A DNA stretch of 64,000 nucleotides from a virus (Duplodnaviria; Heunggongvirae; Uroviricota; Caudoviricetes): IMG/VR virus record IMGVR_UViG_3300026549_002453; one strand, 5' to 3'. Shown in pieces: positions 7,015 through 39,827 of the stretch. The translations under genes and the position numbers were made by a program. Positions within the stretch are counted from its first letter, which is position 1. Each line of letters opens with the position of its first letter. The notes beneath the pieces are model-generated. The model was not told where the DNA came from. It searched no databases and saw only the letters and a program-made list of their open reading frames with translations.

Positions 7015-7017
7015 CTG

Positions 7018-21189: not shown

Positions 21190-21247
21190 AAATACGAGTT
21201 TGGCGGTATCTCATTAAAAACCACCCAATTAAAGAAAGGATGGTTTG

Positions 21248-21955
21248 ATGAAGAAATGTGGACATAAAGGATGCAAAACAAAAATAGACGAACAGTATAG
21301 GTTTTGCTATGAACATAGAAAGGATAAGTACCAGGATACTTGTTATATCCATGGGAAGACTCTTTTTTCTGAGGGCAAATGTTTAAAATGCTTAGATATG
21401 AAGCGTCCTATATATAGAATACATAAGAGAGATAATAATTATTATTTTAATAGAAATAGAAAACCTATAGATAAAGATAGTTTTATGTATCCATATTGTA
21501 AACAACTTACGCATAAAACAATATCCTATCAAAACAGGTATATGGGAAAAATTAGTAATTCAGCTGGGATATATGGCATATTTGTAAGGGATAAAAGGAA
21601 GAAGGACCAGTTAGGTGAGTGCCTATATGTAGGTCAAGCGACCGATATTTCTAGGAGGATTAAACAGCACAAGAAGAACTTTGCGACAGCAAGTAATCAT
21701 ATAAAAGGCTTAAAAGCAAGTAGTAAGAGTAGCGTTATAGTAATACCAAAGTATAAAGTAGAAGCCAAGTACTATATGATGGCTAAAGATTATTGGTTGA
21801 AAGATTTGAAGTTTGTTTGTTTATATAGGTTTGATGATAACTTTAAGAAACTATTGCCCAGCGAACAAAAGGTTTTGCTTACGTTAGAGGAACAATTATT
21901 TATAGATATTTATTCCAGTTCACTTAACACTTTTGCAGCAAGGCCAAGTTACTAA
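21248..21955 (+). CDS. GIY-YIG nuclease-domain protein with N-terminal Cys/His zinc-binding region
   Basis: GIYGIFV...YVGQATDISRRIKQH matches the GIY-YIG core; N-terminal CGHKGC...CYEH, CYIHG, CLKC. Confidence 0.6.
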   Translation: MKKCGHKGCKTKIDEQYRFCYEHRKDKYQDTCYIHGKTLFSEGKCLKCLDMKRPIYRIHKRDNNYYFNRNRKPIDKDSFMYPYCKQLTHKTISYQNRYMGKISNSAGIYGIFVRDKRKKDQLGECLYVGQATDISRRIKQHKKNFATASNHIKGLKASSKSSVIVIPKYKVEAKYYMMAKDYWLKDLKFVCLYRFDDNFKKLLPSEQKVLLTLEEQLFIDIYSSSLNTFAARPSY

Positions 21956-21965
21956 GGAGAAATGT

Positions 21966-22172
21966 ATGAGTAGTATAGCATTAGAACAACTATTTGATAT
22001 TTTACCTGAAGATTATGAATTAAGAATAGTTGATATGAATGACAAAGAACTAGCAAGATATGATGGTCGAAATTCTATTCCAGAAACGTTCAACAAAGAC
22101 AAAATCTATGAAATTAGAATTTTACGCGGAGACTGTCTTAAGATTATTTTAGACCTATTTTATGAAGACTAA
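21966..22172 (+). CDS. hypothetical small protein
   Basis: AAGGAG RBS then ATG 21966; the ORF-track start 21933 lies inside the upstream gene. Confidence 0.35.
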   Translation: MSSIALEQLFDILPEDYELRIVDMNDKELARYDGRNSIPETFNKDKIYEIRILRGDCLKIILDLFYED

Positions 22173-22181
22173 TGTGCAAGT

Positions 22182-23351
22182 ATGGAGGAAATAAAAGTGA
22201 AGCTTAACAAGGATAAAACAAAGAAAGAAAAAATCAAAAAAGAAAAACCTAAGAAAATAAAAGAAAAGCCTAAAAAAATAAAGGAGCCAAAGCAACCTAA
22301 GTTAAAAACAGAAGTTCCTAAACTAGATAAAGAAGTAACTTGGGAATATGCTCATGAGGCAGATTTAACTATAGGTGAAACTAAAATTAGTAATGTAGCT
22401 AAGGTTATTTTAATTTTACTTATTCTTGCTCTTATAGGTGCCGGTATATTTGGTTATTTAAAGAGAGATTATATTTCTGACTATATTAAACAGCCTGCTA
22501 TTGTGTTATCCACTAATGAAGTTACCCTAGAAGTAGGAGACGAGTTTGATTATAAAGACTATCTTACTGATGTCGAATATTTAGATAGATGGGCTCTTAC
22601 GTACCCAGATAATACAGAAGTGGATACAAGCAAATTAGGAGACTATACAGTACAATATAAATTGCAATCCTTGGCTAATGAAAGCTCTTCAGAGTTGGTC
22701 GTTCATATCGAGGATAGCACCCCTCCAACAATTAAATTAAAGGAAACTATGATTAAGTTAGAGCGTGGAGAACAAACTGAAAAATTTGATGCCAGTAAGT
22801 ATATCCAAGAAATAAAGGATAACTATGATAAAAAGGAAGATATTGAAGTAACGTACACAACGACGGTAGACTGGACCAGGGATACGGTCGAAATAGATTA
22901 TACTGTGGTAGATAAATCAGGAAATACTGGCACTGCAAAATTAAATATAGCAGTAACAGACCCTCCCAAGGAACCTGAAGTAGTATACGTTGAGGTTGAG
23001 GTTCCAGTTGAAACTCCTGCCCCATCAAATGATGTTTCCAGCAGCGGTTCATCCGGAGGTAACAGTGGAGGTAATACATCTAGTAGTAATACAGAACAAC
23101 CTTCTAGTGGTAACTCGGGTAACAGTAGTCCACCTCCCTCTCAAAATCATTATATAAATGGAGTGCACAACTTTTCGGTTAAGGTGGGGGATTTAAACAC
23201 ATTTACTGCTGAAGTACAAAGTGGAATTAGCTCAGATGAAACTATATCCGTGGACTATAGTTCTGTAAATCTTAGTGTACCTGGTAGTTATACTGTTACA
23301 TATTCAACAGCGCACGTGACTAAATCGGCCACGGTTACGGTTGTTGAATAA
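22182..23351 (+). CDS. type-II membrane-anchored surface protein with Ig-like (DUF5011-like) domains
   Basis: Lys-rich N-terminus, one TM helix, extracellular repeats, Ser/Gly-rich linker; paralog of 25724..26986; start may be GTG 22197. Confidence 0.55.
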   Translation: MEEIKVKLNKDKTKKEKIKKEKPKKIKEKPKKIKEPKQPKLKTEVPKLDKEVTWEYAHEADLTIGETKISNVAKVILILLILALIGAGIFGYLKRDYISDYIKQPAIVLSTNEVTLEVGDEFDYKDYLTDVEYLDRWALTYPDNTEVDTSKLGDYTVQYKLQSLANESSSELVVHIEDSTPPTIKLKETMIKLERGEQTEKFDASKYIQEIKDNYDKKEDIEVTYTTTVDWTRDTVEIDYTVVDKSGNTGTAKLNIAVTDPPKEPEVVYVEVEVPVETPAPSNDVSSSGSSGGNSGGNTSSSNTEQPSSGNSGNSSPPPSQNHYINGVHNFSVKVGDLNTFTAEVQSGISSDETISVDYSSVNLSVPGSYTVTYSTAHVTKSATVTVVE

Positions 23352-23461
23352 ATATATTTAATTACAGTACTATGGGGAGCAAAAGGAGTAGCTACCTATG
23401 TGAGATAAGAGTGCCTATATCACTCAGCCATAGTCGGTATATCTTATATAGGAGGATATTT

Positions 23462-25672
23462 ATGATAAGAAAAAATGAGTTAAAATATGTAAATTGTTTG
23501 ATTTGTGGGGAATCAAAATCTGTAACTGGACTACCGAATCATGTTAAACACAAACATGGCATACCGCCTGAAGAATACTATCTTAAATTTTTTAAAAAAG
23601 ATGATAATGATGGAAAATGTCTAACTTGTGGCAAACAGATGACGTTTAAAGGAATATTTAAGGGTTATAACAGATTTTGTAGTAATAGTTGCATAAGAAA
23701 AAATCCATCTATTATTGAAAAAACAAAACAAAATAATTTAGAAAAGTACGGTACAGAATGGGCAATATCTGCCCCTCAGACAAGAAGAAAGATTGAACAA
23801 ACTACATTAGAACATTATGGGGTTAAATGTAATTTGTCTTCTCAAAAAATAAGAGAAAATATAAAACAGACGTGTCAAGAAAAATATGGTGGAAATGCAC
23901 CCGCTTGTAATAAAGTAGTTAAAGACAAGATGATAAGTACTAATCGAGAAAGATATGGTGTCGATTTCTATAACAATATAGATAAAACACGTGAAACTAA
24001 TTTAGATAGATATGGCGTTACATGCACTTTACAGGCTAAAGAAGTAAAAGAAAAAATTAAAAAGACAAACTTAGAGAAGTATGGAGCAGAAAATGTATTT
24101 GCCTCAGAAGAAGTAAAAGAAAAAATTAAAAATACTAACATAGAAAAATATGGCTTTGAATATAGTATACAATCAAAAGAGGTTCAAAATAAATGTAGAA
24201 ATACCATGATTAAAAATCATGGAGTTGAATATACTTGGCAGTCTCCAAAATTATTTAAAAAAGTTGTTGATACTAAGATAGAAAGGTATGGACAAAACTA
24301 TAAAGTAAAAGAACGGGAAAAACAGAAAGAGACACTGCTTCAAAGGTATGGAGTAGAAAATCCTATGCAGTGTGCGGAAATTAAGGCTAAAGCAAAAAAT
24401 ACTAACATAGAAAAATATGGAGCTGAATTTTATGCACAAACAGCTGAATTTCATAAAAATAAACTGACAAAATATTGGTACAATAACGTAACCTTTGACT
24501 CTTCTTATGAGCTTTGCTTTTATAGATATTGTCTTGACCACAATATAGATATTGTTAGAAATACAGATTCATTTAAATATGTGTTTCACAATAAAACACA
24601 CTTATATTTCCCTGATTTTGTAGTAGAAGGAGAGTATGTAGAAATTAAAGGTGCCCAATTTTTTGAGGATGGGAAAATGATAAACCCATATGATAGGTCT
24701 CAGGATGCTTTTTATGAAGCTAAACATCAATGTATGATAGAGAATGGTGTAAAAATTATAACTGATTGTACAAGATATATAGAATATATTAATTCTATTG
24801 ATAAAAACTTTTTAGATAAGTGCAGTTTAAAAAGAAAATTAAACCTAGATTGTTTAGAGTGGAAAAAGTTAACAGATGGAAAACAGAGAGTAATAGATAT
24901 TGCTAAAAGGGCAACCGGTGAGGAATTTTATAAAAGAGAATTATCTTTCTGGGAGCAAAATCCAGAGCAAAGAAAGATATTATTTGAAAATAGACTAAAA
25001 TATATACATAAACAACCAAACGAACTCTCCGATTTAGAAATTCTTAGAGGGATAAGCATTTCTGGTAAGGTTAGAGCTTATTCACATTTTGACAACGCTG
25101 GAATGAAAAAATTTATAGAAAAATACAATATTCATTCAATATATGATCCCTGTGCAGGTTGGGGTGAGCGATTGATTACTTGTGCCGCATTAGGCATTGA
25201 ATATAAAGGGATAGATATAAATCCGAATGTTGTAGAAGGGCATAAAAGAATAATTAAGCACTATAATTTAGATAAAAATAAGTACCAAGTATATTGCTGT
25301 GATTCTGGTAGCCAAAGTACAGAAGATAATTTAACTAACGAATATGATGCTACATTTACTTGCCCTCCATATTGGAATGAGGAAATTTATACAGATGCAG
25401 GTGCAGAAAACTTGTCATATAAAGAGTTTTTAGACTGGTGGAAACAAGTAATCATAAATTCAAACACAGATTTATTTGCATACCAAATAAATCAAAAATA
25501 TAAAGAAGATATGAATAAGGTTTTAAAGGATTTGGGGTATGAATTCATTGAAGAAATTATCTTACCTCAAAAAAGTAGTCATTTTACAAGAGAAAAAAAT
25601 GGTGTAAATAAGAAAAAAGAGTATGAAAGTATTCAAGTTTTTAAACTACCTACAGCAAAACCTCGAGTTTAA
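23462..25672 (+). CDS. multidomain protein: zinc fingers + 11 tandem ~30-aa KYG repeats + PD-(D/E)xK nuclease-like core + N6A/N4C DNA methyltransferase
   Basis: GGAGGA RBS then ATG 23462. Two Cys/His clusters at the N-terminus. Eleven repeats of the form K.K.TN[LI]EKYG.E....S.EVKEKI. A nuclease-like core (YFPDFVVEGEYVEIKG). SAM motif I (IYDPCAGWGERL) and motif IV (FTCPPYW). Confidence 0.75.
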   Translation: MIRKNELKYVNCLICGESKSVTGLPNHVKHKHGIPPEEYYLKFFKKDDNDGKCLTCGKQMTFKGIFKGYNRFCSNSCIRKNPSIIEKTKQNNLEKYGTEWAISAPQTRRKIEQTTLEHYGVKCNLSSQKIRENIKQTCQEKYGGNAPACNKVVKDKMISTNRERYGVDFYNNIDKTRETNLDRYGVTCTLQAKEVKEKIKKTNLEKYGAENVFASEEVKEKIKNTNIEKYGFEYSIQSKEVQNKCRNTMIKNHGVEYTWQSPKLFKKVVDTKIERYGQNYKVKEREKQKETLLQRYGVENPMQCAEIKAKAKNTNIEKYGAEFYAQTAEFHKNKLTKYWYNNVTFDSSYELCFYRYCLDHNIDIVRNTDSFKYVFHNKTHLYFPDFVVEGEYVEIKGAQFFEDGKMINPYDRSQDAFYEAKHQCMIENGVKIITDCTRYIEYINSIDKNFLDKCSLKRKLNLDCLEWKKLTDGKQRVIDIAKRATGEEFYKRELSFWEQNPEQRKILFENRLKYIHKQPNELSDLEILRGISISGKVRAYSHFDNAGMKKFIEKYNIHSIYDPCAGWGERLITCAALGIEYKGIDINPNVVEGHKRIIKHYNLDKNKYQVYCCDSGSQSTEDNLTNEYDATFTCPPYWNEEIYTDAGAENLSYKEFLDWWKQVIINSNTDLFAYQINQKYKEDMNKVLKDLGYEFIEEIILPQKSSHFTREKNGVNKKKEYESIQVFKLPTAKPRV

Positions 25673-25723
25673 CTAAACTATAACTGTTACCGTAACAGAG
25701 TATTATTATTGAAAGGAGGTAAT

Positions 25724-26986
25724 ATGGATAAATATCCCATGAACTGGAAGTATGCGGGCAAAGCTGAAGTAAATATGAAGGAAAAAAAGAGCCTTAACAT
25801 AAAAGTAATAATTTTAATATGCGTGTTGATTCTTTTTATTGTATTGGGGTCCTTAGGGTTTATATACAGACACTATATTATAGACAAGTTTACTAACCCA
25901 TACTTTGTTCTTACTACTGAGGAAACAGAGATTGAAGTAAACTCAGAGTTTGACTATTCTATATATGTAGGGGATAACTCTTGGCCAACTAGATACGAAG
26001 TGATATACCCAGACTCTTCTCAAGTAGATACCTCAAAACTAGGTGAATATAACTTAGAGTTTATATTAAAGACCGAGGCTACCGAAAATGTATCCAACCT
26101 ATTGGTGAAGGTGGTAGATACCACTCCGCCGGTTCTAGAGCTTACTGCTGAAGAAATATCATTGACTAAGGGGGAGGAAACTATGGAATTTAACCCCGAG
26201 ACCTACGTTAAATCTATGACTGATAATTATGATAAGAGGGACAACCTAACTCTAAATTATTCTAATATTTTAGATTGGAGTGGTAGTGAGGTATGGGTGG
26301 ATTACACCTTGGCTGACACTTCAGGCAACAATAGTAAGGCTAAACTTAAAGTACTAGTACTAGACGAAGAAAAGGACTTTGGGACAGTAGTGGTTGAATA
26401 TGTAAACACTGAAGGAACACCTATAATTGAGGATGGTGTGGTATTTAAAGCAAAGATAGGCACTCCCTATAAAACAGAGCAAAAAGATATTCCTGGATAC
26501 ACTTTTAAAGAATTGGGTAAAAATTCTGCCCCAAAAGAAGGTGAAATAGAGAGAGGAGAACTGAAGGTTGTTTACGTGTATGAAAAGGTTGAGGAAGAAA
26601 AAAAGGAAGAGGTTCCTAAGGTAGAGGAAAGCAAGCCCAAGGAGGATAACCCTAGTACTGAAGGAGAGTCAACAAGCGCCTCTCAAGACTCCCAAAATGT
26701 TCAAAATTCCCAAGAATCATCCTCATCTACAGAACAAAGTAGTTCTTCTTCAACATCCGCCGCACCCAGAGGCCATTATATAGATGTAGATAATATTACT
26801 GTAAAAAAAGGAACTTCCTTAGACCAGTTTATATCTATCCTACAATCTAGTATAAAGTCAGATGAAGAGGTACAAGTACTGTTCGGTGCAGTGTCTCAAG
26901 AGTCACTTAATACTCCTGGCAAGTATACTATAACTTGCCAATCTGCCAATGTGACCAAGGATGTCATTGTAACTGTCACCAACTAG
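25724..26986 (+). CDS. membrane-anchored surface protein with Ig-like and MucBP-like domains
   Basis: AGGAGG RBS; one TM helix; region collinear with 22182..23351; VVVEYVNTEGTPI...GYTF...VVYVYEK fits a MucBP domain; Ser-rich linker. Confidence 0.6.
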   Translation: MDKYPMNWKYAGKAEVNMKEKKSLNIKVIILICVLILFIVLGSLGFIYRHYIIDKFTNPYFVLTTEETEIEVNSEFDYSIYVGDNSWPTRYEVIYPDSSQVDTSKLGEYNLEFILKTEATENVSNLLVKVVDTTPPVLELTAEEISLTKGEETMEFNPETYVKSMTDNYDKRDNLTLNYSNILDWSGSEVWVDYTLADTSGNNSKAKLKVLVLDEEKDFGTVVVEYVNTEGTPIIEDGVVFKAKIGTPYKTEQKDIPGYTFKELGKNSAPKEGEIERGELKVVYVYEKVEEEKKEEVPKVEESKPKEDNPSTEGESTSASQDSQNVQNSQESSSSTEQSSSSSTSAAPRGHYIDVDNITVKKGTSLDQFISILQSSIKSDEEVQVLFGAVSQESLNTPGKYTITCQSANVTKDVIVTVTN

Positions 26987-27059
26987 TAAAAATTTATTTA
27001 GAGGTTACATAAATCTAATTATAATTATACTGAATAAGTATACTGATTTGAGGTAAAGT

Positions 27060-27593
27060 ATGGATGTAATAATAGTACTATGGTTAGTGTGCGTAGGTTG
27101 TCGCATTAAATTGTTTGTTGATAGATACGAAAAAGGTTGGAAAGCTCTAGTACCCTTTTATAATAAGTATATATTGGGAAAGACCATTAACGAAGTAAAA
27201 TGTGGTAAACTTACCGCTTTAACCAACTTTTTATTTATAACTGCGTTTTGGATTTGCGTAGGAGTGGAGTGGGCTATTTGGTCGAGTCTTCCTTCTGAAA
27301 TAGTTGATATAGAAAATTTTAATATAAATGACTATGTTTCCACTTCCCTTCTTACTAGTGATGTTGTGTGTAAGGTTATATTACTAATTACTGCAATATT
27401 GTATTATGTGAGTTGGGTAATTCTTACGTACAAATTTAGTGACAAACAAGGTACTTCTACTTGGTGGATGGTAGGATGGGGAATTTGTCCTCTTTTACCT
27501 TATATTTATTATGCTTTTATATATAAACCGGTTTACCTACCATCCAAAGGTTTGGTAGAGTATCAGAAAATAGAAGTAAAAATTAAAAGTTAA
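27060..27593 (+). CDS. membrane protein with a GWKxLxPFYN motif (paralog of 12266..12868)
   Basis: GWKALVPFYNKYILGK motif; four TM helices. Confidence 0.45.
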   Translation: MDVIIVLWLVCVGCRIKLFVDRYEKGWKALVPFYNKYILGKTINEVKCGKLTALTNFLFITAFWICVGVEWAIWSSLPSEIVDIENFNINDYVSTSLLTSDVVCKVILLITAILYYVSWVILTYKFSDKQGTSTWWMVGWGICPLLPYIYYAFIYKPVYLPSKGLVEYQKIEVKIKS

Positions 27594-27715
27594 CCTACAT
27601 CACGTATAAAATCATTTAATTATAAGAATATCTAGAGAAGATATATCTGTTTAATAGAAAATATAACAATAGAAGAAGTTGAAGATAACAACTAATTGAG
27701 AAAGAAGGATAATTT

Positions 27716-30700
27716 ATGCGAAAAATATTGAGTAAATTTTTAATGATTATTATGCTATTTACATTATTTCCAACTAGTGTATTGGCACAAACAATTACTG
27801 CTATTACGAATGATTATAATGATTTAGCAATTAACTATGTCCAATTTGATAGGTTAGACTTAACAAAAGCCGAAATTAGTACTACAGGAAACATAAAAGT
27901 GTCTAGGGGGACATTTCCTCAAGTACAAAATGGTAAGACTCCTGAAGATGGGTTAGTATATCCCCATGTCGTAATATATTATGAGGGTCCATTAACTTGG
28001 GGAACAGCAAATAGAACAGCCACAGAAAATGCAAAATTAGGAATTACATCTGTGAATGGTTCTATAACTATGAGATTTCCTAAAATGGCCACATTATCCG
28101 ACGGTACAAAGGCTGATATTTTAATAGATATTAGTGATATTAAGGTTGGGGCATCAGCGAAACCTGAAACTATAGATAATAATACAAAGGTATTTTTTCC
28201 ATTAATCAACAGTGGTATTGTTGTAGAAAATCCTCCAAATTTTCAATATATTTGCGGAGGACCTAGAACAGTTTTAGATGATGTCACATCAACTCTTACA
28301 AGAGCTCAATTCACGCACACTAACAATACTACTATCAAAGTGGTCAAGCCAGGAACTACTACTCCAATTGATACATCTAAATATCCAACTATGCTATTCG
28401 GCGCATATGACTTAGACGTACAAAGCGCAGATATTGCAACAGGTAAGGAGTCTTCTGAACAATATGCTGGATTGTATAGTGAGGGATTTGAACTATTATC
28501 AGGGTTCAATAGTCCACTTTATCTTACTGAAAATACTCTCTGTGTAGTTGAAACAGTAAATGGCAACACAAAAATCAGAGGTACAATGATTGATGGATCA
28601 ACTACCAATAGCGGATTTGTGGCATCCGCCAACCCAGCTGGATTTTCTGTTAAATGGAGTGGTTCGCAGAATTCAAGTGCAACAATTATCGGATCAACAA
28701 TGGGAACTACTTTATCTAATTTTGCAAATGTTGCTGTAACTGCGACATCTGGTGAAGGTGGTTCGATAGAAAAGTCTGGGAATACCTCTTATTTAATAAA
28801 TTCTCAAATTTAATAAATTCTCAAACAACATATGATTATACTCCTTCAGAGGGATATAAAGTAAAATCATTAAAAGTAGACGGTACCGATATAGATTTCG
28901 ATAAAAATGGTGGTACATATACTTTTGAAAAATTAGTACCTAAGACAGATAAACAACCATATACTATTGATGTACAGTTTGAAAGAAAAGATTATCATGT
29001 AGTATATAAGAGTGATGAGGGTGGCTCTATTACGGGTAAAATAGAAGAATATAAAGACCCAAATGAAACTACCACCGGTACAACTCAACAAGATAAAGAA
29101 GACTATAGATTTACTCATTATATAGCAGATAAGGATATTACCCTTACTGATGGAACTACTATTGATAAGGGTGAACCCATTACAGAAGAACAAATTTCAA
29201 AAGTGGTAGTTAATTCAGATTTAGAATTTACTGCTATTCACGAAAAATTGCATAATGTATATTATGTAGCAGAAGATGGCGGAGTTATCACTGGTAAAGA
29301 GCATGAAGTGAGGTCAGAAAATGAAACTTCTACCGGCTCAAGTCAAGAACCAAATGAAGGTTATAGATTCCTCAACTGGAAGGTTGATAGTGATATTACT
29401 CTTAAAGACGGTACAACTATTACAGCAGGTAGCATCGTTACTATGGAAGACATGGAAAATGCTATAGTTGACCACGATATTACATTTACTGCCCATTATG
29501 AAAAAATTCCTAAGTTGGTTGTTGAAAAAATAGCAGATAAGGAAAAATATGGTGTAGATGAAGACATACTATACACCATTACCCTAAATCAAACTGTAGA
29601 AAATGCGGTGGCAAAAAATGTAGTTATTACTGATACCCTACCTGATGGTGTTGAAATAGTCAGTGAACTCACAGTAACTGCGGATATAACAGATATGATT
29701 ACAGATGTTCAATTTAATGAGAAGAGCTTTACGGTAAAAGTTAAGGAATTGGCAGATGCTAATAAGATAACAATTTCATTTACAGCTAAAGCTAATAAAG
29801 AGGTCGTAGTGACACCAGAAGTATTAAATACTGTAGGAGTAGAAGCAAGTAATGCAGAATCTGTAGAGGATGAAGTAGTTGTAGCTAGAGTTGTTAATAT
29901 ATTTACAAAAATAACAAATGGAACTATTGATGAAGACCTCATAGATACTCCGGTAGGAACTACTGTAGCTAGAACCTATACTCCAAATGAAGGATATTAC
30001 ATCAAAGAAATAAGAGTTAATGGGGTACCCGTAAATGTAGAGGACCATCCTGCTTCATATGTATTTGAAGATGTCACTGACGACCAAGATATAGAAGTTA
30101 TATGTGAAAAAATTTCTTATGAAATTACTACTGAAGTAAAAAATGGTACTATCGACAGTGGTGGCAAGGTATTTGTAGGAGATGACTCTACTATAACTTA
30201 TGAACCACAAAAAGGATATAAACTTAAATCTATTGAAGTAGATGGCGTAGAAGTAGATATTAATGAATTTGCTTCTTCTTATAGCTTCTTAGATATACAG
30301 GAAAATCACCATATTAAAGTGGTTTATGAACCAATTCCAGTTGAACCAGAACCACTTCCAGACCCAGTAGACCCTGAAACCTATACTGTAACATTTGTGG
30401 ATGGATATGGTGCTACCCTTAAAGTACAGGATGGCATTCCTTTACACGGAAGTGCAATAGCACCCGAAAATCCGGTTCACGATGGAATGACGTTTAAAGG
30501 ATGGGACATTGCTTTTGATGATATTACTAAAAATATTACAGTTACGGCTCAATGGGAACCGCTTCCTACTGAAGTAACTTATAAGGTAACAACAGAAGTA
30601 GAAAATGGTACTATTGACCCAAGTGTAGTTGTAAAAAAGGGTGATGACGTTACTATTAAGTTCAGCCCTAAAGATGGATATAAATTATCAAAAGTAATTA

Positions 30701-30918
30701 TTGATGGTAAAGAGATTGAACTTAAGGGTGATGAAAAAGAATATACATTCAAAGCTCTTGATAAGGATCATACAATAAAGGTAGTATATGACAAACCAGC
30801 AGTTCCAACCCCTTCAACACAGGTACCAGTAAAAACAGGAGATACCTCAAGTATAATGGGGTGGATGGTAATATTGGTTCTTTCTACCTTGGCTGTTGTT
30901 AAATTAAAAAGATTATAA
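27716..30918 (+). pseudogene. large sorted surface protein (~1061 aa if intact) split by a 17-bp tandem duplication
   Basis: Signal peptide at 27716. Stop at 28811 falls inside the perfect tandem duplication TTTAATAAATTCTCAAA x2 (28792-28825). Removing one copy joins the frame to the downstream repeat-containing ORF, which ends with PVKTGD plus a TM helix and basic tail. The region 28814-29202 is open in the downstream frame and has the same domain pattern. Confidence 0.7.
28792..28825 (+). repeat. perfect 17-bp tandem duplication (2 copies)
   Basis: TTTAATAAATTCTCAAA occupies 28792-28808 and again 28809-28825. Confidence 0.95.
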
Positions 30919-31014
30919 GAATGTAAATGTGGAGAATGGAGGTCTTAGATCCCATTCTCCCTACTGACTAACTATAAGTATGGATAAACCTAGCGGAAAG
31001 GAAAATTGATTGTT

Positions 31015-33840
31015 ATGCAATGGAAAAAGTATGTATGTTTGCTATTAAGTGTTATAATAGCAACCATGCCTATAATTTCTTTAGCAGAGGATGAGAAAAA
31101 TATAGCTGAACCAACTACAGCAGAAGAAACAGTTTCAAATGAAGAAACGAAAACTGAACCTCCAACTGTTAAAGAAACAGAGGAAGTTAAAGAAGAAACT
31201 TCAAATGAACAAGTGAATAATGAAGAAGCTAAAACTGAAAACGAGACTACAAAAGCAGAAGAACAAAAGAAATTAGAGGAACAGGAAGCCCAACAAAGGG
31301 CTGAGGAGGAAGCGAAACAAAAAGCCGACGCAGAAGCCAAAAAGAAAGCTGAAGAAGCACAGAAAAAAGCAGAAGAGGAAAAGGCTAAAGCTGAGGCGGA
31401 TAAAAAAGCAGAGGAAGAAGCTAAAAAGAAAGAAGAACAGCAAAAAGCTGAGGAAGCTAGTGCTACTCCTAATATAGAATCTTCTACAGTAGTTGTTACA
31501 AGTAATAATGGGGATACATCAGCATATAGATATGATGAAGCACAATACAACCCAGAAGTAGGAACAACTTTAAGATACCCTCTTTCAATGCAAGGGACTC
31601 TTACGTCATATTTTGGTAAAAGAACACCGGTTGATACCCCAATGGGGCAGAGTTCATCCGACCATATGGGAATTGATATTGCCATATCAGCTGGAACTCC
31701 AGTAATAGCAGCTGAAACAGGTGTTATTATAAGAGCATCTTGGTATGGCGGGTATGGCAATTGTATTGATATCGAACATAAAGATGGTATGGTTACTAGA
31801 TATGGGCATTTGTCTGAAATTAATGTTAAAGTTGGAGATAATGTGCTTAGAGGTCAACTTATTGGCAAAGTAGGGTCAACTGGGAGAAGTAGCGCTCCGC
31901 ATTTACATTTTGAAGTTATGCCGGACGGTAGAACACCAGTAAATCCACTTCCATTTTTAGAAGAGCCTGCTACAGATAGAGATACTCAATATTCTAATGT
32001 AAAATTTCTATTAGTAAAGAAAGATAATCTAGAAACCATTATGGACAATCTTATTTTATTTCTAGAGTCAGAAATTGAGGCAGATGCAAATCTTGAGGAT
32101 AATACCAAAATAGATGAAATATCTTTAGCAGATGAAAAAAAATCTATTAAAGAAGCAGAAAATAAAGAAATTCTAGATGAAAGTACATCCAGATATCTAG
32201 GTGAAGACATAGTAGCTTATGGCAAAATATATGCTTCTATTGGAAATGATAATTCTTCCAATTATACCATTACCACACCGTATGTTCTTGGTGGACATGA
32301 TTTAGATGTAGCAGTAGATTGTGGCGGGTTTGTAACAGAAGTATATAAACATTTTGGATATGATATAAAGTTTGGAAATGTTGGCTCTATTTATAATGAA
32401 GTTATGAATAATCATAATGGACAAGTTATATCTGAAAATTTAGGTACAACATATAACAAGGCTGAAATAGATAAATGGCTTCCTGGAGATATTATCTTCT
32501 TTAGTGATTCTGAGTGGGCATGGTCTCACGTAGCTTTATATGCCGGAAACGGACAAATCGTACACTCTAAGTGGGAAAAATCAGGAGTAATATTAGAAAA
32601 TCTATATTCTAACAACCATGTGTATAGTGGAAAAAGTGTTAAATATGTAGTGAGAATACTCACTCCAGAAGATAAAGTTCAAAATAACTTTAAGAAAACT
32701 GAAAAATCTGTATCAACAAAGTCATATGCGGGCCGTGCAGTTAATACAGGCGATATCCTATTCCAGCTAAATGAAAGATTACCGATAGAAATCAAAGATG
32801 GAAAAACACTCATAGATATTTCTAAGTATTATAATACTGGTTTACTAAAAGATGAACCAATTCTTATACAAACAAAAGAGGGTTATAATGTTGATTTTAG
32901 AATTAATAACACAGTGGAAGATATAAATGACCCAGAATTACATGAAATTAAAAACGAGTTACTTAGAAAGTATGAATTAGTTATTGATGAAGAAGTACCT
33001 CAATCTGAAATTCAACTTATCATCCCAAGTGAAAATATATCTAAAACTAAGGTAATCACTCGAATTAATAGTGAATTTGATACCTTACCATCAGATATAT
33101 ATGAATTTAATCCACTGTTTGGAATGAATCTTAACTTAGGCATAAAAGATATTACTAAAGAAAATATTACTGTTTCAGTAAATGGTAAAGAATTGCCACA
33201 TAATTATTATAGTTATAATAATGAAGTATTAACTATAAATTATTCAGCATTGTACGTAGAGACCCTTGAAATCAAAGTTACAAAAGAAAAGCATCAGCTA
33301 GAAGATTTACCAATTATCAGCAGTGTACATGGTATATCAACATGGCTCAACATAGAGGGAGATATTGATTTGATTGGACTTAATTCTTCTATAGAGGGAT
33401 GCTATTTTGTAAACTCTATGCTTGATAATAATATTCAAAGTGAGTATAGAGTACTTCCGTACAATAGGTACAACTTTACTGTAAATAAGGAAAACAATAT
33501 AGAGTCTAACCTACTTATAGATAATGAATTGGCCGACGGATATATAAGTATTCCAATTAAACAATTCTTGTCAGACTTCAAGTATACTTCTAAACTTGAC
33601 CCTCTAACTTATAGTGATGAGTCAATGTTACAAGAACTTAAGATTAATGATAAGAATTATAATATCTTTATATATGGTGAGCAGCTTAATTTGTTAGATA
33701 ATATCGACCTTGAGGATGGAGAAAAAGAGGTAAACTTCAAGGTACTAGACTATTATGAACAAGGTAGTGACAATTATTTCATAGTTTCCTATGAAGTAGA
33801 AGGGATAGGTGGATACTTTGGCATTAACATCAAAGATTAA
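31015..33840 (+). CDS. secreted bifunctional peptidoglycan hydrolase: M23 (LytM) peptidase + NlpC/P60 domain with a long E/K/A-rich linker
   Basis: Signal peptide; KAEE-type charged repeats; M23 motifs HMGIDIA...YGHL...SAPHLHFEV; NlpC/P60 Cys (VDCGGFV) and His (WSHVALYAG...IVHS). Confidence 0.85.
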   Translation: MQWKKYVCLLLSVIIATMPIISLAEDEKNIAEPTTAEETVSNEETKTEPPTVKETEEVKEETSNEQVNNEEAKTENETTKAEEQKKLEEQEAQQRAEEEAKQKADAEAKKKAEEAQKKAEEEKAKAEADKKAEEEAKKKEEQQKAEEASATPNIESSTVVVTSNNGDTSAYRYDEAQYNPEVGTTLRYPLSMQGTLTSYFGKRTPVDTPMGQSSSDHMGIDIAISAGTPVIAAETGVIIRASWYGGYGNCIDIEHKDGMVTRYGHLSEINVKVGDNVLRGQLIGKVGSTGRSSAPHLHFEVMPDGRTPVNPLPFLEEPATDRDTQYSNVKFLLVKKDNLETIMDNLILFLESEIEADANLEDNTKIDEISLADEKKSIKEAENKEILDESTSRYLGEDIVAYGKIYASIGNDNSSNYTITTPYVLGGHDLDVAVDCGGFVTEVYKHFGYDIKFGNVGSIYNEVMNNHNGQVISENLGTTYNKAEIDKWLPGDIIFFSDSEWAWSHVALYAGNGQIVHSKWEKSGVILENLYSNNHVYSGKSVKYVVRILTPEDKVQNNFKKTEKSVSTKSYAGRAVNTGDILFQLNERLPIEIKDGKTLIDISKYYNTGLLKDEPILIQTKEGYNVDFRINNTVEDINDPELHEIKNELLRKYELVIDEEVPQSEIQLIIPSENISKTKVITRINSEFDTLPSDIYEFNPLFGMNLNLGIKDITKENITVSVNGKELPHNYYSYNNEVLTINYSALYVETLEIKVTKEKHQLEDLPIISSVHGISTWLNIEGDIDLIGLNSSIEGCYFVNSMLDNNIQSEYRVLPYNRYNFTVNKENNIESNLLIDNELADGYISIPIKQFLSDFKYTSKLDPLTYSDESMLQELKINDKNYNIFIYGEQLNLLDNIDLEDGEKEVNFKVLDYYEQGSDNYFIVSYEVEGIGGYFGINIKD

Positions 33841-34702
33841 AGTAAAGTTAGTTGTTATATTGGTACTAGTATGTTTAATACTAGGATTATTGAGCACTTT
33901 AAATGTATCTATTTCATCCCTTTTACAGGGGGTAGATCTGGACAATGTAAAGGTTGAAACGGCTATTAATGGGGATGTAAAAATCTTAGATAATTCCGAA
34001 AACATTAGGGCAAAAACCTCTACGTCTGACATATCGAACACTATATTAGAGTTAGAAAACCCTGAATTAACGGAAACAGACAGTCAACTACTGGTATCTG
34101 GAGAAGTGGACTCCAATTTAATAGATAATGCTCTTAATGGTAAAGTTGGAGTTACTCATATATTTAATAAGGAAACAAAAGAGTACCTCAGGTCACAAAT
34201 TGAGTTAGAAGATAAGATGAATGATAAAATTTCAGAAGTAGTGGTAAATGAACTATCCACTACAAACTCTTCTCTCGATGAAGGTATGGTTGATGTCAGT
34301 TCTAACTCAGTAATAACAGTGTCTCCAGCTGAACAGACTACCACAGTTACACTGGAGGAGGAACTAAAGTCAAAGCTCGATTATTTACAACCTGTATCAA
34401 TTAGTGATAAGGTAAAAGAAATAACTGTAAATAATAACAAGTATGTGTTAGGAACTACAAAATTTACTGAAGATGCAAAGGCTCAAGAAAATGTGAAATT
34501 TATTGTAGATGATGGGATTATTTATGGAGTACGGGGAAAATCGGGCGACGTAAAGTATCTGGCAGAAGAAGACCTAAAAAAGGAGTTGGGGGAACCTACC
34601 GTAATTCATGATACAAAATATTGGAAGGTAGCGGTTGACAACGAAGAAATAAATATAGCTTTAACAAAGGATTCAATTGATGTATTATATAAACACAATT
34701 AA
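33809..34702 (+). CDS. secreted/membrane-anchored hypothetical protein
   Basis: N-terminal hydrophobic segment; overlaps the upstream gene end. Confidence 0.45.
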   Translation: MDTLALTSKIKVKLVVILVLVCLILGLLSTLNVSISSLLQGVDLDNVKVETAINGDVKILDNSENIRAKTSTSDISNTILELENPELTETDSQLLVSGEVDSNLIDNALNGKVGVTHIFNKETKEYLRSQIELEDKMNDKISEVVVNELSTTNSSLDEGMVDVSSNSVITVSPAEQTTTVTLEEELKSKLDYLQPVSISDKVKEITVNNNKYVLGTTKFTEDAKAQENVKFIVDDGIIYGVRGKSGDVKYLAEEDLKKELGEPTVIHDTKYWKVAVDNEEINIALTKDSIDVLYKHN

Positions 34703-34725
34703 GAAAATAAGAAAGGATGTACAAA

Positions 34726-34890
34726 ATGGATTTTAGTTATAAAGATGCACTTAGAGAAGATATTAAGTTATCAGAGATGGAAGAATCTATGGAAACCAAC
34801 CCAAGGGGTCAAACCCAAATTACGGAGTTAAAGGCCTTCTGTGAAAATTTTCCCATAGATACCTATCTTGGAAAGGAGAATAATGTATAA
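34726..34890 (+). CDS. hypothetical small protein (54 aa)
   Basis: GAAAGGA RBS then ATG 34726; below the ORF-track length cutoff. Confidence 0.3.
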   Translation: MDFSYKDALREDIKLSEMEESMETNPRGQTQITELKAFCENFPIDTYLGKENNV

Positions 34891-35797
34891 ACTACAATCC
34901 TCAGACAAGACTAATGGTCACTTTGTGGCTGCCTTAGAAACCAATCCTGAATTTTTAAAAGAACTCTCTTCAAAGTGGACCCCTGACATGCTTAGATATT
35001 TTATTTTTCATGAAGAAGTAAATGAAAAACAATTTAAAATTTTAGGGTCCACTCTAAGTTGTGGAGATAACTTGGGGACGCCTCTTCTGGAGAGTGAAGC
35101 GAGATTCTTATGGTTCGTGTTATGTGTCAATTTTGCACATTATAACAAGGAAATTGGATTAAAAATTTCAACACCTGTTCATGCTAAATATTTATATGAC
35201 CTGTGCGAAGGCGAGTATAAAAATTTAGATTTGGAAAATGACCATAGTGAGAAAAAGCACCGTGAGGCATACTGCAGGTTTTTAGCTAGACATACTTGTC
35301 TCTATCCAGAGAAAAATATATACTGGGAAATTCCTGTTAGCTTCTATAAAAATCATTGTATGGTGGCGGGAGCGTGGGCAACATTTGCCATTGCTACTAT
35401 TGGAGATACTAAAGTCAAAATTCCTCGCAGTATATTTTTGAAATTTTTTGCATCTTCCATTTCAGAAGGTAAGGTTGTGGCTAACGACTCAAAAGAGATT
35501 AGGCTGTTCTTTGATGAATCTATAAGTGAACCTGTATGGGACACCCTTAAGTATATGGGGTACAACCTTCATAGTAAAATAATTATGCACGACGGTGTGG
35601 ACTACTATTATGATGATAACATGGACAAGGGTTTGTGTGCTCACCTTCTTAATAAAACTGCAGTATTATGGCAAAACGAAGAAGAAAAAGTATATTGGAA
35701 CGAAATTCAGCCCAACACCTATCATTATCTAAGGAGAGATGAAGAGTATGTTCCTACCAAACCTATAGGCAATATTATTTATGTTTATAAAAATTAG
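34883..35797 (+). CDS. hypothetical protein
   Basis: AAGGAG RBS before ATG 34883. Confidence 0.45.
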   Translation: MYKLQSSDKTNGHFVAALETNPEFLKELSSKWTPDMLRYFIFHEEVNEKQFKILGSTLSCGDNLGTPLLESEARFLWFVLCVNFAHYNKEIGLKISTPVHAKYLYDLCEGEYKNLDLENDHSEKKHREAYCRFLARHTCLYPEKNIYWEIPVSFYKNHCMVAGAWATFAIATIGDTKVKIPRSIFLKFFASSISEGKVVANDSKEIRLFFDESISEPVWDTLKYMGYNLHSKIIMHDGVDYYYDDNMDKGLCAHLLNKTAVLWQNEEEKVYWNEIQPNTYHYLRRDEEYVPTKPIGNIIYVYKN

Positions 35798-35811
35798 TGA
35801 AAGGAGAATAT

Positions 35812-36531
35812 ATGGATTTTAGATTTTTAAGGCAACCTGTAGAAGGATTGGACCCTTTACGAGCTAACTCCCGATATTTTACGGAAGCAGACGAAGGGTA
35901 CAGTTATACGGATTTTTATAAATATAAAATGGCCCGTTCAGCTGCAGAGTACTTTAAGGCTCTAGTCTTTAAGCTGGATAATAGGAGTACTGATGGTAAA
36001 GGACTATACTCTTATGATAAGGAAGATGACTATATAGACCAGGAGGCCACTAGTAAAAATAGAGGCCCTTATGCAGACAAGTTCCTATTGTTCGAAGAAC
36101 AATGGCAGGCATATAAAAAACAGAATTTAGACCAAGAGTTTAAGCCTCAGGAGAGCATAGAAAATACCGACTCAGAAGAACTAGGATTGAGTGAATTTAA
36201 TCCATCAATTTCTTGCTCATTGGATGAAGCCATTCAGGCTTATTATTGTGCTTCTGAAATTCTTGCAAGGTATGATAAGAAAAAGGGGGACAGATATGAC
36301 TCTCTTCCTAAGTCCACTAAATACGTATCTAAGGATGAATACAAGGAGAAGCATGAAATATTTAGAAAACAGCTGAGAGAAAAATTAGGTCTCCCTGAGG
36401 ATGATACCTTTAAGGTATATAAACATGAAATAAGGCCCAGAATGAAACCCGGTAAGCGTCCAGAGGCTACAGATGACTCTAAGTTCCAGGAATATTCCAA
36501 GGAATTTACGAAGTTTATTATTAATGACTAA
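35812..36531 (+). CDS. hypothetical protein
   Basis: AAGGAG RBS before ATG 35812. Confidence 0.45.
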   Translation: MDFRFLRQPVEGLDPLRANSRYFTEADEGYSYTDFYKYKMARSAAEYFKALVFKLDNRSTDGKGLYSYDKEDDYIDQEATSKNRGPYADKFLLFEEQWQAYKKQNLDQEFKPQESIENTDSEELGLSEFNPSISCSLDEAIQAYYCASEILARYDKKKGDRYDSLPKSTKYVSKDEYKEKHEIFRKQLREKLGLPEDDTFKVYKHEIRPRMKPGKRPEATDDSKFQEYSKEFTKFIIND

Positions 36532-36598
36532 ATTATAATTATATTTAATAATAATGAATATAAATTGAAGGTAATTTTTAACAGAAAGGAAATTTATT

Positions 36599-36814
36599 AT
36601 GACACTTAATGAAACAAAATTTGGAAAAATCGTAGTAGAGCTTAACAATTTTACTAATCTTATCAATCCAGAAGCTATTATGCAATTTGACAATATGACA
36701 GACAGTCAGCTTAATGCTTTGGCAGATTCTGATTCTCTTACTGGTAAGATTGCTAGTCTCTATCTTGATTTACTCGCTCAGATGAGGGAGGTTTCTGCTC
36801 CAAGAGAAGACTAA
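36599..36814 (+). CDS. hypothetical small protein
   Basis: AAAGGAA RBS. Confidence 0.35.
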   Translation: MTLNETKFGKIVVELNNFTNLINPEAIMQFDNMTDSQLNALADSDSLTGKIASLYLDLLAQMREVSAPRED

Positions 36815-36835
36815 TTTTTAAAGAAAGGAGAAATA

Positions 36836-37258
36836 ATGAAGATAAACCCCAATCTAATACAAAGTAGAGATATGGAAAATCAGTTATCTAATCTACCAGA
36901 AAATATAGAGGAATTTGATGAAAAAGATTGGAGGACTTTTATTGCAGAAGTTTTTCTTCCCATCATCAATTCATTCCATTCTGAAGAATTGGATAAAGAT
37001 GCTACAAGCTTTGATTTATCTTTTCCTCGCGTTCTATCTACTAACAAAAAAGGGGCATCAGAGTTTACTTTAAAAGCTTACAATAAAAATAAAAGCGATT
37101 TTAACCCAATTATAATTGTAACTCCAACATTAGTGGATGCAATTGAAGAATTTAATATACCATTTAGGGGTACTGAAGATAAAGTAAATTTTGAAGAAAC
37201 TATGTCTTATTTAAAAGATAAGATAACAATTTATTATCCCGCTGGAGAAATAGAATGA
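36836..37258 (+). CDS. hypothetical protein
   Basis: AAGGAG RBS. Confidence 0.4.
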   Translation: MKINPNLIQSRDMENQLSNLPENIEEFDEKDWRTFIAEVFLPIINSFHSEELDKDATSFDLSFPRVLSTNKKGASEFTLKAYNKNKSDFNPIIIVTPTLVDAIEEFNIPFRGTEDKVNFEETMSYLKDKITIYYPAGEIE

Positions 37259-37276
37259 AGAAAAGAGGTGAGTAGA

Positions 37277-37657
37277 ATGTTTGACATTGTAGCAAGAAAA
37301 GATTTTAGACAGTTGTTTGATGAGATGTTCGACACAACTAGAAAATCAATAACAACAGATTTTAAAGAAAAAGACGGAAAGTGTACATTAGTTTCTCAAT
37401 TGGCAGGATTTGATAAAGATGACATTAAGATTACTCTTAATGGTGGATATTTGACAATCCTTGCTGAAAAGAAAGAGGATAACTCAGACGAGTATTCTCA
37501 TAAAGAAAGTTATAGTAAAATGAGCAGAAGTTTCTATGTAGGTAGGGATTTCTCAGAAGAAGACTTTACTGCTAAATTTGAAAATGGCTTACTCACAATA
37601 GAATTTGATAAAAAAGAGCCGAAGCAGATTGAAGTGAAAACAATCGAAGTAGAATAA
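37277..37657 (+). CDS. small heat-shock protein, Hsp20/alpha-crystallin family
   Basis: The alpha-crystallin domain pattern (DIKITLNGGYLTILAEKKEE...SYSKMSRSFYVG...ENGLLTIEFDKKEP) matches Hsp20 proteins. Confidence 0.6.
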   Translation: MFDIVARKDFRQLFDEMFDTTRKSITTDFKEKDGKCTLVSQLAGFDKDDIKITLNGGYLTILAEKKEDNSDEYSHKESYSKMSRSFYVGRDFSEEDFTAKFENGLLTIEFDKKEPKQIEVKTIEVE

Positions 37658-37670
37658 GAAAGGATAATGT

Positions 37671-39089: not shown

Positions 39090-39204
39090 GTGTGAACATT
39101 AGGTACTCTGGCCTAAAGAGTTTAAATAATGCAGTCCGCCGACGGTTAGCCTAATTTCATATATGAGTTTAGCAGTATCTCATTAAAAACTGCCTCCCCT
39201 TTCT

Positions 39205-39275: not shown

Positions 39276-39355
39276 GACTTATGTGTATACAACCTTGACG
39301 TGGTATAAGTCCTTTAAACTAATAGTATACAATTATTTTAAAAAGGAGAAGTATA

Positions 39356-39825: not shown

Positions 39826-39827
39826 GT

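What the first reader, a model, noticed from the sequence alone, without database searches (positions are those of the whole stretch)
28792..28825. Perfect 17-bp tandem duplication splits a ~1060-aa sorted surface-protein gene
TTTAATAAATTCTCAAA occurs twice in direct tandem. The upstream ORF (27716-28813, with signal peptide) terminates inside the duplication. Removing one copy joins it in frame to the downstream reading frame (28813 onward, then 29203-30918). That frame carries the same repeated ~90-aa domains (…GYK.K…DG…V.Y…) and ends with a PVKTGD sorting signal. The sequence between 28814 and 29202 has no annotated ORF but is open and protein-like. This is a recent inactivating duplication, or an on/off switch by gain or loss of one repeat.
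Basis: seen in the sequence. Interest (0 to 1): 0.6.

Follow-up and report, generated by a model that had tools for sequence, protein, structure and literature searches.

The report
17-bp duplication splits an adhesin gene
A perfect 17-base tandem duplication frameshifts a cell-wall-anchored adhesin gene on a large mobile element from a metagenome, and the intact one-copy version of the same gene exists in another public metagenome, so this is a real, recent on/off difference of an ordinary kind.

Summary
TTTAATAAATTCTCAAA occurs twice in perfect tandem (28792-28808, 28809-28825). The 365-aa ORF (27716-28813) stops at TAA TAA inside copy 2. The -1 frame is open from 28756 to 30918.

Removing one copy gives a 1061-aa protein. 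It has a signal peptide, an adhesin head whose predicted fold resembles the Sgo0707 N-terminal domain, a stalk of InlB-B-repeat-like and DUF11 domains, and a PVKTGD sorting signal.

Eight of nine aligned homologues run ungapped through the junction, and standalone 365-aa heads are not a family architecture.

The predicted single-copy allele exists. JGI metagenome 3300026526 contig Ga0256869_1028879 (2918 bp) is identical to window 26915-29849 except that one 17-bp copy is missing.

The two-copy allele appears in a 253,880-bp ENA MEGAHIT contig and in Logan contigs of SRR7971121 and SRR7971122. It is therefore not an assembly artefact.

Best reading: a recent slippage duplication that knocks out surface display, leaving only a secreted head, and is polymorphic in nature. 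It could revert by loss of one copy, as in pneumococcal cap3A phase variation. Nothing shows a dedicated switch: there are only two copies, and the closest homologue has no repeat at the site.

It is a known kind of event, and interest is moderate to low.

The parts
27716..28813 (+). 5' fragment of the split adhesin gene: a 365-aa ORF comprising the signal peptide, the head domain and the first strands of the first stalk repeat
   Evidence: The ORF list and translation are. The exact product is in public protein collections as P0028. The AlphaFold model has pLDDT 78 and pTM 0.79. Its only significant PDB fold match is 4igb_A, the N-terminal adhesin domain of Sgo0707, at E 6e-9.
27716..27790 (+). 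Predicted signal peptide MRKILSKFLMIIMLFTLFPTSVLA|Q
   Evidence: This is read directly from the sequence: a basic n-region, a hydrophobic core and VLA-Q. The AQT motif after the hydrophobic segment recurs in several homologues and is the alignment consensus. No signal-peptide predictor was run.
28792..28808 (+). Copy 1 of the 17-bp unit TTTAATAAATTCTCAAA
28809..28825 (+). Copy 2 of the 17-bp unit. One of the two copies is absent from the intact allele.
   Evidence: The copies are shown. JGI contig L004 lacks exactly 17 bp here and is otherwise identical.
28811..28816 (+). Premature TAA TAA stop codons, created in frame 0 by the duplication
28826..29202 (+). Open, protein-like stretch in the -1 frame with no start codon. 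It encodes the first stalk repeats of the ancestral protein.
   Evidence: Searches show the open frame. It aligns at about 60% identity to homologue P0001. It is translated as part of a 705-aa uninterrupted ORF on L004.
29203..30918 (+). 3' fragment as called by gene finders: 571 aa from a GTG start, with no signal peptide. It contains the stalk and the sorting signal.
   Evidence: The ORF is. The exact product is in public collections as P0030 and P0031. Pfam finds Flg_new_2, DUF11 and Flg_new.
30826..30915 (+). Cell-wall sorting signal: PVKTGD (30826-30843), a 19-residue hydrophobic segment and a KLKRL tail
   Evidence: Searches show the sequence. Similar signals occur in three other ORFs of the window. 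Homologues end in x(K/R/S)TGD, a transmembrane segment and a basic tail.

Best explanation
The locus is a single ancestral gene for a sortase-anchored fibrillar adhesin of 1061 aa. It consists of a signal peptide, an Sgo0707-like head of about 310 aa, a stalk of InlB-B-repeat-like and DUF11 modules, and a PVKTGD sorting signal. The gene sits on a large element of at least 254 kb, phage- or plasmid-like, probably in a Clostridia host.

A spontaneous tandem duplication of 17 bp (17 mod 3 = 2) shifted the frame after codon 364. The likely mechanism is strand slippage during replication in a stretch that is 88% A+T. Translation now ends at TAA TAA one codon into the new frame.

The two-copy allele should therefore produce only a secreted, unanchored head. 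Its sequence differs from the wild type only in the last residue. The stalk and anchor are not made: the first start codon in their frame lies 390 nt downstream, has no recognisable ribosome-binding site, and would give a protein without a signal peptide. Surface display of the adhesin is off.

The event is very recent:
- the two copies are identical;
- the 2.1-kb downstream frame carries no further lesion;
- the intact allele circulates in an otherwise identical background.

Precise loss of one copy would restore the gene, so the state is revertible in principle. It looks like an accidental polymorphism rather than a built-in switch.

Shown: the duplication, the frameshift, the family architecture, both alleles in public data, and reproducibility across assemblers and sequencing runs. 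Inferred: the slippage mechanism, secretion of the head, absence of stalk expression, and reversibility.
For: - The duplication and the reading frames are shown, and the duplication is beyond chance.
- P0001 (1200 aa, 44% identity, 97% coverage) aligns without a gap through the junction: SYLINSQTTYDY against SYIINSKTLYKY. Eight of the nine aligned homologues do the same.
- An exhaustive HMMER search with the 365-aa fragment finds 65 representative clusters. Nearly all are 500-1900 aa and continue well past the break. None other than the fragment itself ends at it.
- The intact allele is JGI 3300026526 Ga0256869_1028879, which equals window 26915-29849 minus 17 bp with no other difference. Its gene call is 705 aa and runs off the contig end. 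A second contig from that sample matches window 36467-39203 exactly.
- The two-copy allele is in ENA ERZ27252065 k141_147859 (253,880 bp, identical to the window). It is also in Logan SRR7971122 (31,139 bp) and Logan SRR7971121 (1120 bp). The protein records further point to a 177,605-bp JGI contig.
- Sgo0707 binds type-1 collagen and keratinocytes (PMC3656908).
- The homologue's DNA has no repeat at the site.
Against: - No reads were available, so allele frequencies within samples are unknown.
- It is also unknown whether both alleles coexist in one population.
- The two-copy allele is the consensus wherever the element assembles into long contigs. That could mean the off state is selected rather than a neutral accident.
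- Finding both alleles in identical backgrounds is also what a reversible switch would produce.
- Secretion of the head and silence of the stalk are predictions, not observations.
- The fold match to Sgo0707 is moderate (TM 0.48 and 0.42, 12% identity).
Confidence: 0.7

Rival explanations
1. The duplication is a functional reversible ON/OFF switch, that is, phase variation by gain and loss of one 17-bp copy. The population would hedge between anchored adhesin (one copy) and secreted head only (two copies), as with duplication-mediated capsule phase variation in pneumococcus.
For: - Both alleles occur in otherwise identical DNA: no other differences over 5655 bp compared.
- The off allele is the consensus in two sequencing runs.
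- The copies are perfect, so precise excision is mechanistically easy.
- Surface adhesins are typical targets of phase variation.
- There is a precedent. Tandem duplications in cap3A switch the capsule off, and reversion of the duplication switches it on (Waite et al. 2001, as summarised in PMC11163986).
Against: - There are only two copies of a 17-bp unit, not a repeat tract.
- The closest homologue has different, non-repeated DNA at the site, so nothing is conserved that would favour switching.
- Only two states were seen, and no three-copy allele.
- No within-sample heterogeneity could be shown.
- The Logan contig ends at 28823. That is not where a bubble between one- and two-copy alleles at k=31 would break, which would be 28808 or 28837 (my calculation).
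- The ancestral stretch has no significant secondary structure.
Confidence: 0.22
2. The duplication is an assembly or sequencing artefact, and the real sequence has one copy.
For: Nothing positive supports this. Reads could not be inspected. The one-copy contig shows that such a sequence exists.
Against: - The two-copy sequence is reproduced by MEGAHIT at k=141 (ENA contig).
- It is also reproduced by the Logan pipeline in two different runs.
- The protein records indicate a JGI assembly as well.
- A 35-nt periodic stretch contains no repeated 31-mers, so de Bruijn assemblers have no reason to create or collapse it (my calculation).
Confidence: 0.02
3. The split is functional as it stands. Either it is a native two-gene arrangement, or full-length protein is made by programmed -1 frameshifting or by ribosomal hopping from a codon in copy 1 to the identical codon 17 nt downstream in copy 2.
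For: - The needed shift is -1, and the two frames overlap over 28756-28813.
- A perfect duplication offers matched take-off and landing codons, for example CAA 28805-28807 and CAA 28822-24. Hopping between them would regenerate the wild-type sequence. This idea comes from my knowledge of T4 gene 60 bypassing and was not tested.
Against: - No X_XXY_YYZ slippery heptamer lies in frame in the overlap (reading).
- There is no significant local structure.
- Family members encode head and stalk in one ORF, and none ends at the break.
- The identical background with one copy shows that the uninterrupted ORF is the normal state.
Confidence: 0.04

Closest known systems
Duplication-mediated phase variation of the pneumococcal type 3 capsule (cap3A; Waite et al. 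2001, as summarised in PMC11163986)
   Same: A perfect tandem duplication inside an ORF for a surface structure gives the off state. The no-duplication allele is the on state. Reversion would occur by precise loss of the duplication.
   Different: In pneumococcus, switching was demonstrated in culture. Here only the two static alleles are seen in metagenome assemblies. No rate, no direction of change and no additional independent duplications are known.
Simple-sequence-repeat contingency loci (for example tetra- and pentanucleotide tracts in Haemophilus and Neisseria surface genes; from my own knowledge and reviews such as PMC4235727)
   Same: A copy-number change of a direct repeat inside a surface-protein ORF shifts the frame and turns expression on or off.
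   Different: Contingency loci carry long tracts of 1-9-nt units that are conserved as tracts. Here a 17-nt unit is present once in the intact allele and twice in the disrupted allele. It is absent as a repeat from the closest homologue.
Sgo0707 of Streptococcus gordonii and fibrillar adhesins generally (PMC3656908; Periscope proteins, PMC8201768)
   Same: The layout matches: signal peptide, non-repetitive N-terminal adhesive head, repeated stalk domains and a C-terminal cell-wall sorting motif. The head model's only significant PDB match is the Sgo0707 N-terminal domain.
   Different: - Sequence identity is only 12% and TM only 0.42-0.48.
- The stalk is built from InlB-B-repeat-like (Flg_new_2), DUF11 and Flg_new modules, not SHIRT domains.
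- The stalk repeats are divergent at DNA level, with no tandem DNA repeats in 28826-30918, so this is not a length-variable Periscope protein.
- The ligand is unknown.
Ordinary frameshift pseudogenes of surface proteins
   Same: A single indel truncates the protein upstream of its anchor.
   Different: The lesion is a perfect, revertible duplication. The intact allele coexists in the same clonal background. No secondary decay is visible.

Membership tests
Sortase-anchored (LPXTG-type) surface protein / fibrillar adhesin | N-terminal Sec signal peptide | tested here: met
   MRKILSKFLMIIMLFTLFPTSVLA|QT was read from the translation. The equivalent region aligns in the homologues. No dedicated predictor was run.
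Sortase-anchored (LPXTG-type) surface protein / fibrillar adhesin | C-terminal sorting motif followed by a hydrophobic segment and a positively charged tail | tested here: met
   The protein ends in PVKTGD, 19 hydrophobic residues and KLKRL. Three more ORFs in the window end in QPKTGD, NVKTGY and PIKTGD with the same layout. Homologues end in xTGD, a transmembrane segment and an RRR-type tail. The motif is a variant of LPXTG, not the canonical form.
Sortase-anchored (LPXTG-type) surface protein / fibrillar adhesin | Cleavage and cell-wall attachment by a cognate sortase | not testable with these tools
   No ORF of the window contains the sortase signature TLxTC. The host genome is unknown.
Sortase-anchored (LPXTG-type) surface protein / fibrillar adhesin | Repeated stalk domains plus a distal adhesive domain | tested here: met
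   Pfam finds Flg_new_2 (E 4.6e-20, 3 stretches), DUF11 at 595-710 and Flg_new at 884-926. Four GYK.K..VDG modules are present. The head fold matches the Sgo0707 N-terminal domain at E 6e-9.
Simple-sequence-repeat contingency locus | A tract of many copies of a short (1-9 nt) unit in the ORF or promoter | tested here: not met
   The unit is 17 nt and there are 2.1 copies. The intact allele has a single copy.
Simple-sequence-repeat contingency locus | The repeat tract is conserved at the site among homologues | tested here: not met
   The DNA of homologue L001 at the aligned site is TATATTATTAACTCCAAAACA, a single copy with a different sequence.
Duplication-mediated phase variation (cap3A type) | A perfect tandem duplication inside the ORF abolishes the product | tested here: met
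Duplication-mediated phase variation (cap3A type) | Duplication and no-duplication alleles both occur in the same genetic background | tested here: met
   L004 and L007 (JGI 3300026526) are identical to the window over 5655 bp except for the 17-bp copy. Whether the two alleles share one sample is unknown.
Duplication-mediated phase variation (cap3A type) | Observed reversible switching at elevated frequency | not testable with these tools
   This needs read-level allele counts or culture experiments.

The most novel reading that the evidence does not exclude
The 17-bp copy is gained and lost at high frequency. It would act as a reversible switch on a giant (at least 254 kb) phage- or plasmid-like element of a gut-type Clostridia host. 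The switch would toggle an element-encoded adhesin between a wall-anchored form and a freely secreted head that could act as a decoy or competitor. This would tune host-cell adhesion or aggregation, and hence spread of the element. Low-level ribosomal hopping between the identical codons of the two copies could add leaky expression.
Probability: 0.15. Interest if true: 0.55.

Novelty: new member of a known kind. Interest (0 to 1): 0.35.

Why it matters
This is a clean natural example of one mutational event switching off surface display of an adhesin. Both alleles were captured in public metagenomes in an otherwise identical background. The case can therefore be tested directly by counting reads that span the junction. 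That would show whether mobile elements of uncultured gut-type Firmicutes vary their surface proteins by unstable duplications.

For annotation, the 365-aa and 571-aa proteins deposited in public collections (P0028, P0030, P0031) are two halves of one gene, and the 390 nt between them is coding sequence.

It does not reveal a new mechanism.

Tried and rejected
**Searches that found nothing**
- Megablast of 27000-31000 against PLSDB plasmids and INPHARED phages gave no match.
- The search for related loci with the repaired protein found no relative in genome, viral or metagenome contigs.
- Exact DNA patterns allowing one or two copies gave no match in metagenome contigs or viral contigs. These collections evidently lack the relevant JGI contigs, so the negatives say little.
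- The alignment-based genome scan failed on the broad alignment. With a narrower alignment it found one relative, in an Acutalibacteraceae MAG.
- A paper search for the sample accessions returned no paper, so sample metadata remain unknown.
- Exact look-ups of the repaired 1061-aa protein and of the 705-aa partial protein were both negative.
- A look-up of P0031 found nothing on record.

**Unreliable negatives from the search for homologous proteins**
- The full-length query did not return the 100%-identical fragments P0028 and P0030.
- A 191-aa query spanning the junction returned nothing at all, not even P0001.
- Negatives from that tool are therefore uninformative.

**Ideas considered and rejected**
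- Programmed -1 frameshifting: no X_XXY_YYZ heptamer lies in frame within the 28756-28813 overlap.
- DNA secondary structure as a driver of slippage: z-scores were 0.53 and -0.76, not significant.
- An intrinsic terminator or a new promoter created by the duplication: the scans were at background level.
- An alternative genetic code rescuing the stop: the stops are TAA TAA. To my knowledge TAA is not reassigned in any known phage or bacterial code, and frame 0 is full of all three stop codons downstream.
- A Periscope-type length-variable stalk: no DNA tandem repeats occur in the stalk region.

Full report
**1. The observation**

The window reads ...GGGAATACCTCTTA TTTAATAAATTCTCAAA TTTAATAAATTCTCAAA CAACATATG.... 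The two 17-mers lie at 28792-28808 and 28809-28825. Tandem Repeats Finder reports 28791-28825, period 17, 2.1 copies and 100% matches.

Only one other perfect tandem duplication with a period of 10 or more exists in the 64 kb, a 10-mer at 19837. In 100 first-order Markov simulations the longest perfect duplication was 13 bp. The duplication is therefore real sequence and not chance.

The 365-aa ORF 27716-28813 ends at TAA TAA (28811-28816) inside copy 2. The -1 frame is open from 28756 to 30918 and has no ATG, GTG or TTG before the GTG at 29203. Deleting one copy yields a continuous ORF of 3186 nt, encoding 1061 aa.

**2. What the gene is**

The repaired protein has four parts:
- a signal peptide (MRKILSKFLMIIMLFTLFPTSVLA|Q);
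- a region of about 310 residues with no Pfam hit;
- a stalk with Flg_new_2 (divergent InlB B-repeat, E 4.6e-20), DUF11 at 595-710 and Flg_new at 884-926;
- a tail of PVKTGD, 19 hydrophobic residues and KLKRL.

Four GYK.K..VDG modules lie at residues 374, 754, 828 and 982. The first starts nine residues after the break.

An AlphaFold model of the 365-aa fragment has pLDDT 78 and pTM 0.79 and is mostly beta-strand. Its single significant PDB match is 4igb_A, the N-terminal adhesin domain of Streptococcus gordonii Sgo0707 (Foldseek E 6e-9, probability 1.00, TM 0.48 and 0.42). [quoted passage not shown]

The gene therefore encodes a fibrillar adhesin: head, stalk and wall anchor.

Three other ORFs in the window end in similar signals: QPKTGD at 12918-14486, NVKTGY at 37671-39089 and PIKTGD at 40488-41384. 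This supports reading PVKTGD as a sorting motif.

**3. The single ORF is the ancestral state**

The best homologue, P0001, is 1200 aa with 44% identity over 97% of the query. It aligns without a gap through the junction, SYLINSQTTYDYTPSEGYKVKSLKVDG against SYIINSKTLYKYTPSEGYKVKSLKVDG. Its DNA at that site is a single, different sequence. Eight of the nine aligned homologues cross the junction ungapped.

An exhaustive HMMER search of 1.84 billion representatives with the 365-aa fragment finds 65 clusters. Nearly all are 500-1900 aa and continue far beyond the break. None but the fragment itself ends there. A native two-gene arrangement is therefore rejected.

**4. Both alleles exist in public data**

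*Window source.* The window is identical to ENA ERZ27252065 contig k141_147859 wherever the two were compared. This is a MEGAHIT contig of 253,880 bp, and the window corresponds to its positions 90271-154270.

*Two-copy allele.*
- The two fragments are deposited as separate proteins: P0028 (365 aa) and P0030/P0031 (571 aa). The latter two differ only in whether the GTG start is read as M or V.
- The allele is also in Logan contig SRR7971122_62365 (31,139 bp, of which the fetched 19,258 bp are identical to window 21015-40272).
- It is in Logan contig SRR7971121_205110 (1120 bp, identical to window 27704-28823).
- According to the protein records it is on a 177,605-bp JGI contig as well.

Different assemblers and two sequencing runs thus reproduce it. 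By my calculation a 35-nt periodic stretch has no repeated 31-mers that could mislead a de Bruijn assembler. An artefact is very unlikely.

*One-copy allele.* JGI metagenome 3300026526 contig Ga0256869_1028879 (2918 bp) is identical to window 26915-29849 except that exactly one 17-bp copy is missing. Its gene call is a 705-aa uninterrupted ORF running off the contig end. A second contig from that metagenome (2737 bp) matches window 36467-39203 exactly.

Over 5655 bp, the 17-bp indel is therefore the only difference between the one-copy population and the window.

**5. Consequences of the duplication (inference)**

The two-copy allele encodes the signal peptide, the complete head and about 30 residues of the first stalk repeat. 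It ends ...NTSYLINSQI. This product should be secreted but not anchored.

The stalk and anchor frame has no start codon for 390 nt. The GTG at 29203 has no obvious Shine-Dalgarno sequence (one search shows the upstream 20 nt), and its product would lack a signal peptide. Surface display is therefore expected to be off.

I found no in-frame slippery heptamer in the 58-nt overlap of the two frames and no significant local structure. Ribosomal hopping between the identical codons of the two copies is conceivable. It is purely speculative.

**6. Accident or switch**

Points favouring an accidental, recent duplication:
- there are only two copies of a 17-nt unit;
- there is no repeat in the closest homologue;
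- only 1 bp of flanking microhomology is present (the A at 28791);
- the local context is 88% A+T;
- no other state was seen.

Points compatible with a working switch:
- the perfect copies can be lost precisely;
- both alleles circulate in an identical background;
- the off allele is the consensus where the element is abundant, that is, where contigs are long;
- there is a precedent in pneumococcal cap3A, where tandem duplications give the off state and their reversion restores the on state (Waite et al. 2001, as summarised in PMC11163986).

Logan contig L002 ends at 28823. I calculate that a bubble between one- and two-copy alleles at k=31 would break at 28808 or 28837. That end therefore more likely reflects low coverage than allele mixing.

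I put about 0.7 on an accidental loss-of-function polymorphism that is revertible in principle. I put about 0.2 on a functionally used switch.

**7. Context**

All ORFs of 100 aa or more that look real lie on the + strand, and GC is 29-37% across the window. The window carries:
- a CWB2 protein, several lipoproteins and pilin-like and DUF7601 surface proteins;
- an M23 plus NlpC/P60 hydrolase directly downstream of the adhesin;
- a Dam methylase, a UvsX-like recombinase, a dCMP deaminase and a dNMP kinase;
- HNH/RRXRR nucleases, a TnpB and a tRNA-Met.

It is part of a contig of at least 254 kb of unclear type, phage-like or plasmid-like. The one relative of the adhesin found in genomes is in an Acutalibacteraceae MAG. 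The host is therefore probably a member of the Clostridia.

**8. Verdict**

This is a known kind of event: a frameshifting tandem duplication in a surface-protein gene. It is unusually well documented because both alleles were recovered. It is a new member of a known kind, of moderate to low interest.

Noticed in passing
window 56806-58439: An Rfam HEARO RNA (RF02033, 83.9 bits, E 1.9e-15) lies at 56806-57053. It sits directly upstream of a 427-aa ORF with RRXRR and HNH domains (57156-58439). This looks like an IscB and omega-RNA (OMEGA) pair.
   Followed up: partly
window 50417-51640 and 19714-21189: A TnpB-like ORF with OrfB_IS605 and the Cas12f-like TNB domain lies at 50417-51640. A second ORF containing RRXRR, with a weak FtsK/SpoIIIE match, lies at 19714-21189.
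   Followed up: no
whole window (= ENA ERZ27252065 k141_147859, positions 90271-154270 of 253,880 bp): - All substantial ORFs lie on one strand over 64 kb.
- There is one tRNA-Met, at 39204-39276.
- Phage-like DNA-metabolism genes are present: UvsX-like at 59834, dCMP deaminase at 62132, dNMP kinase, Dam at 8319, and DnaB just downstream in L008.
- These are mixed with many host-surface proteins.
- No clear phage structural genes or type IV secretion genes were found.
- The nature of this element of at least 254 kb is unresolved.
   Followed up: partly
window 12918-14486, 37671-39089, 40488-41384, 41388-48476: Three further proteins end in xKTG(D) sorting signals: QPKTGD, NVKTGY and PIKTGD. 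They sit alongside a 2362-aa DUF7601 surface protein and a pilin-like protein with SpaA and FctA domains. No ORF of the window contains the sortase signature TLxTC.
   Followed up: partly
window 3304-7749 and 12266-12868: There is a run of five consecutive ORFs with lipoprotein-type signal peptides (a hydrophobic segment followed by Cys), plus another at 12266. One of the run (5384-6283) carries BspA-type LRR_5 repeats.
   Followed up: no
L002 (Logan SRR7971121_205110) = window 27704-28823: This contig stops 2 nt before the end of copy 2. By my calculation that is not the breakpoint expected for a bubble between one- and two-copy alleles at k=31. It is probably a coverage drop, but allele mixing in that run cannot be excluded.
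   Followed up: partly
window 22238-22282 and 31332-31376: Two imperfect 21-bp tandem repeats (2.1 copies each) lie in frame in Lys/Glu-rich linkers. One is in the Ig-like surface protein (22182-23351) and one in the M23 plus NlpC/P60 hydrolase (31006-33840).
   Followed up: no
window 30931-30960: A perfect 9-bp inverted repeat, GGAGAATGG...CCATTCTCC with a 12-nt loop, lies 13 nt after the adhesin stop codon. No T-run follows it, and the terminator scan did not call it.
   Followed up: no
tool behaviour: The word-indexed protein search missed 100%-identical fragments (P0028, P0030) with the full-length query. It also missed every known relative with a 191-aa query spanning the junction. Negative results from that search should not be read as absence.
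   Followed up: yes
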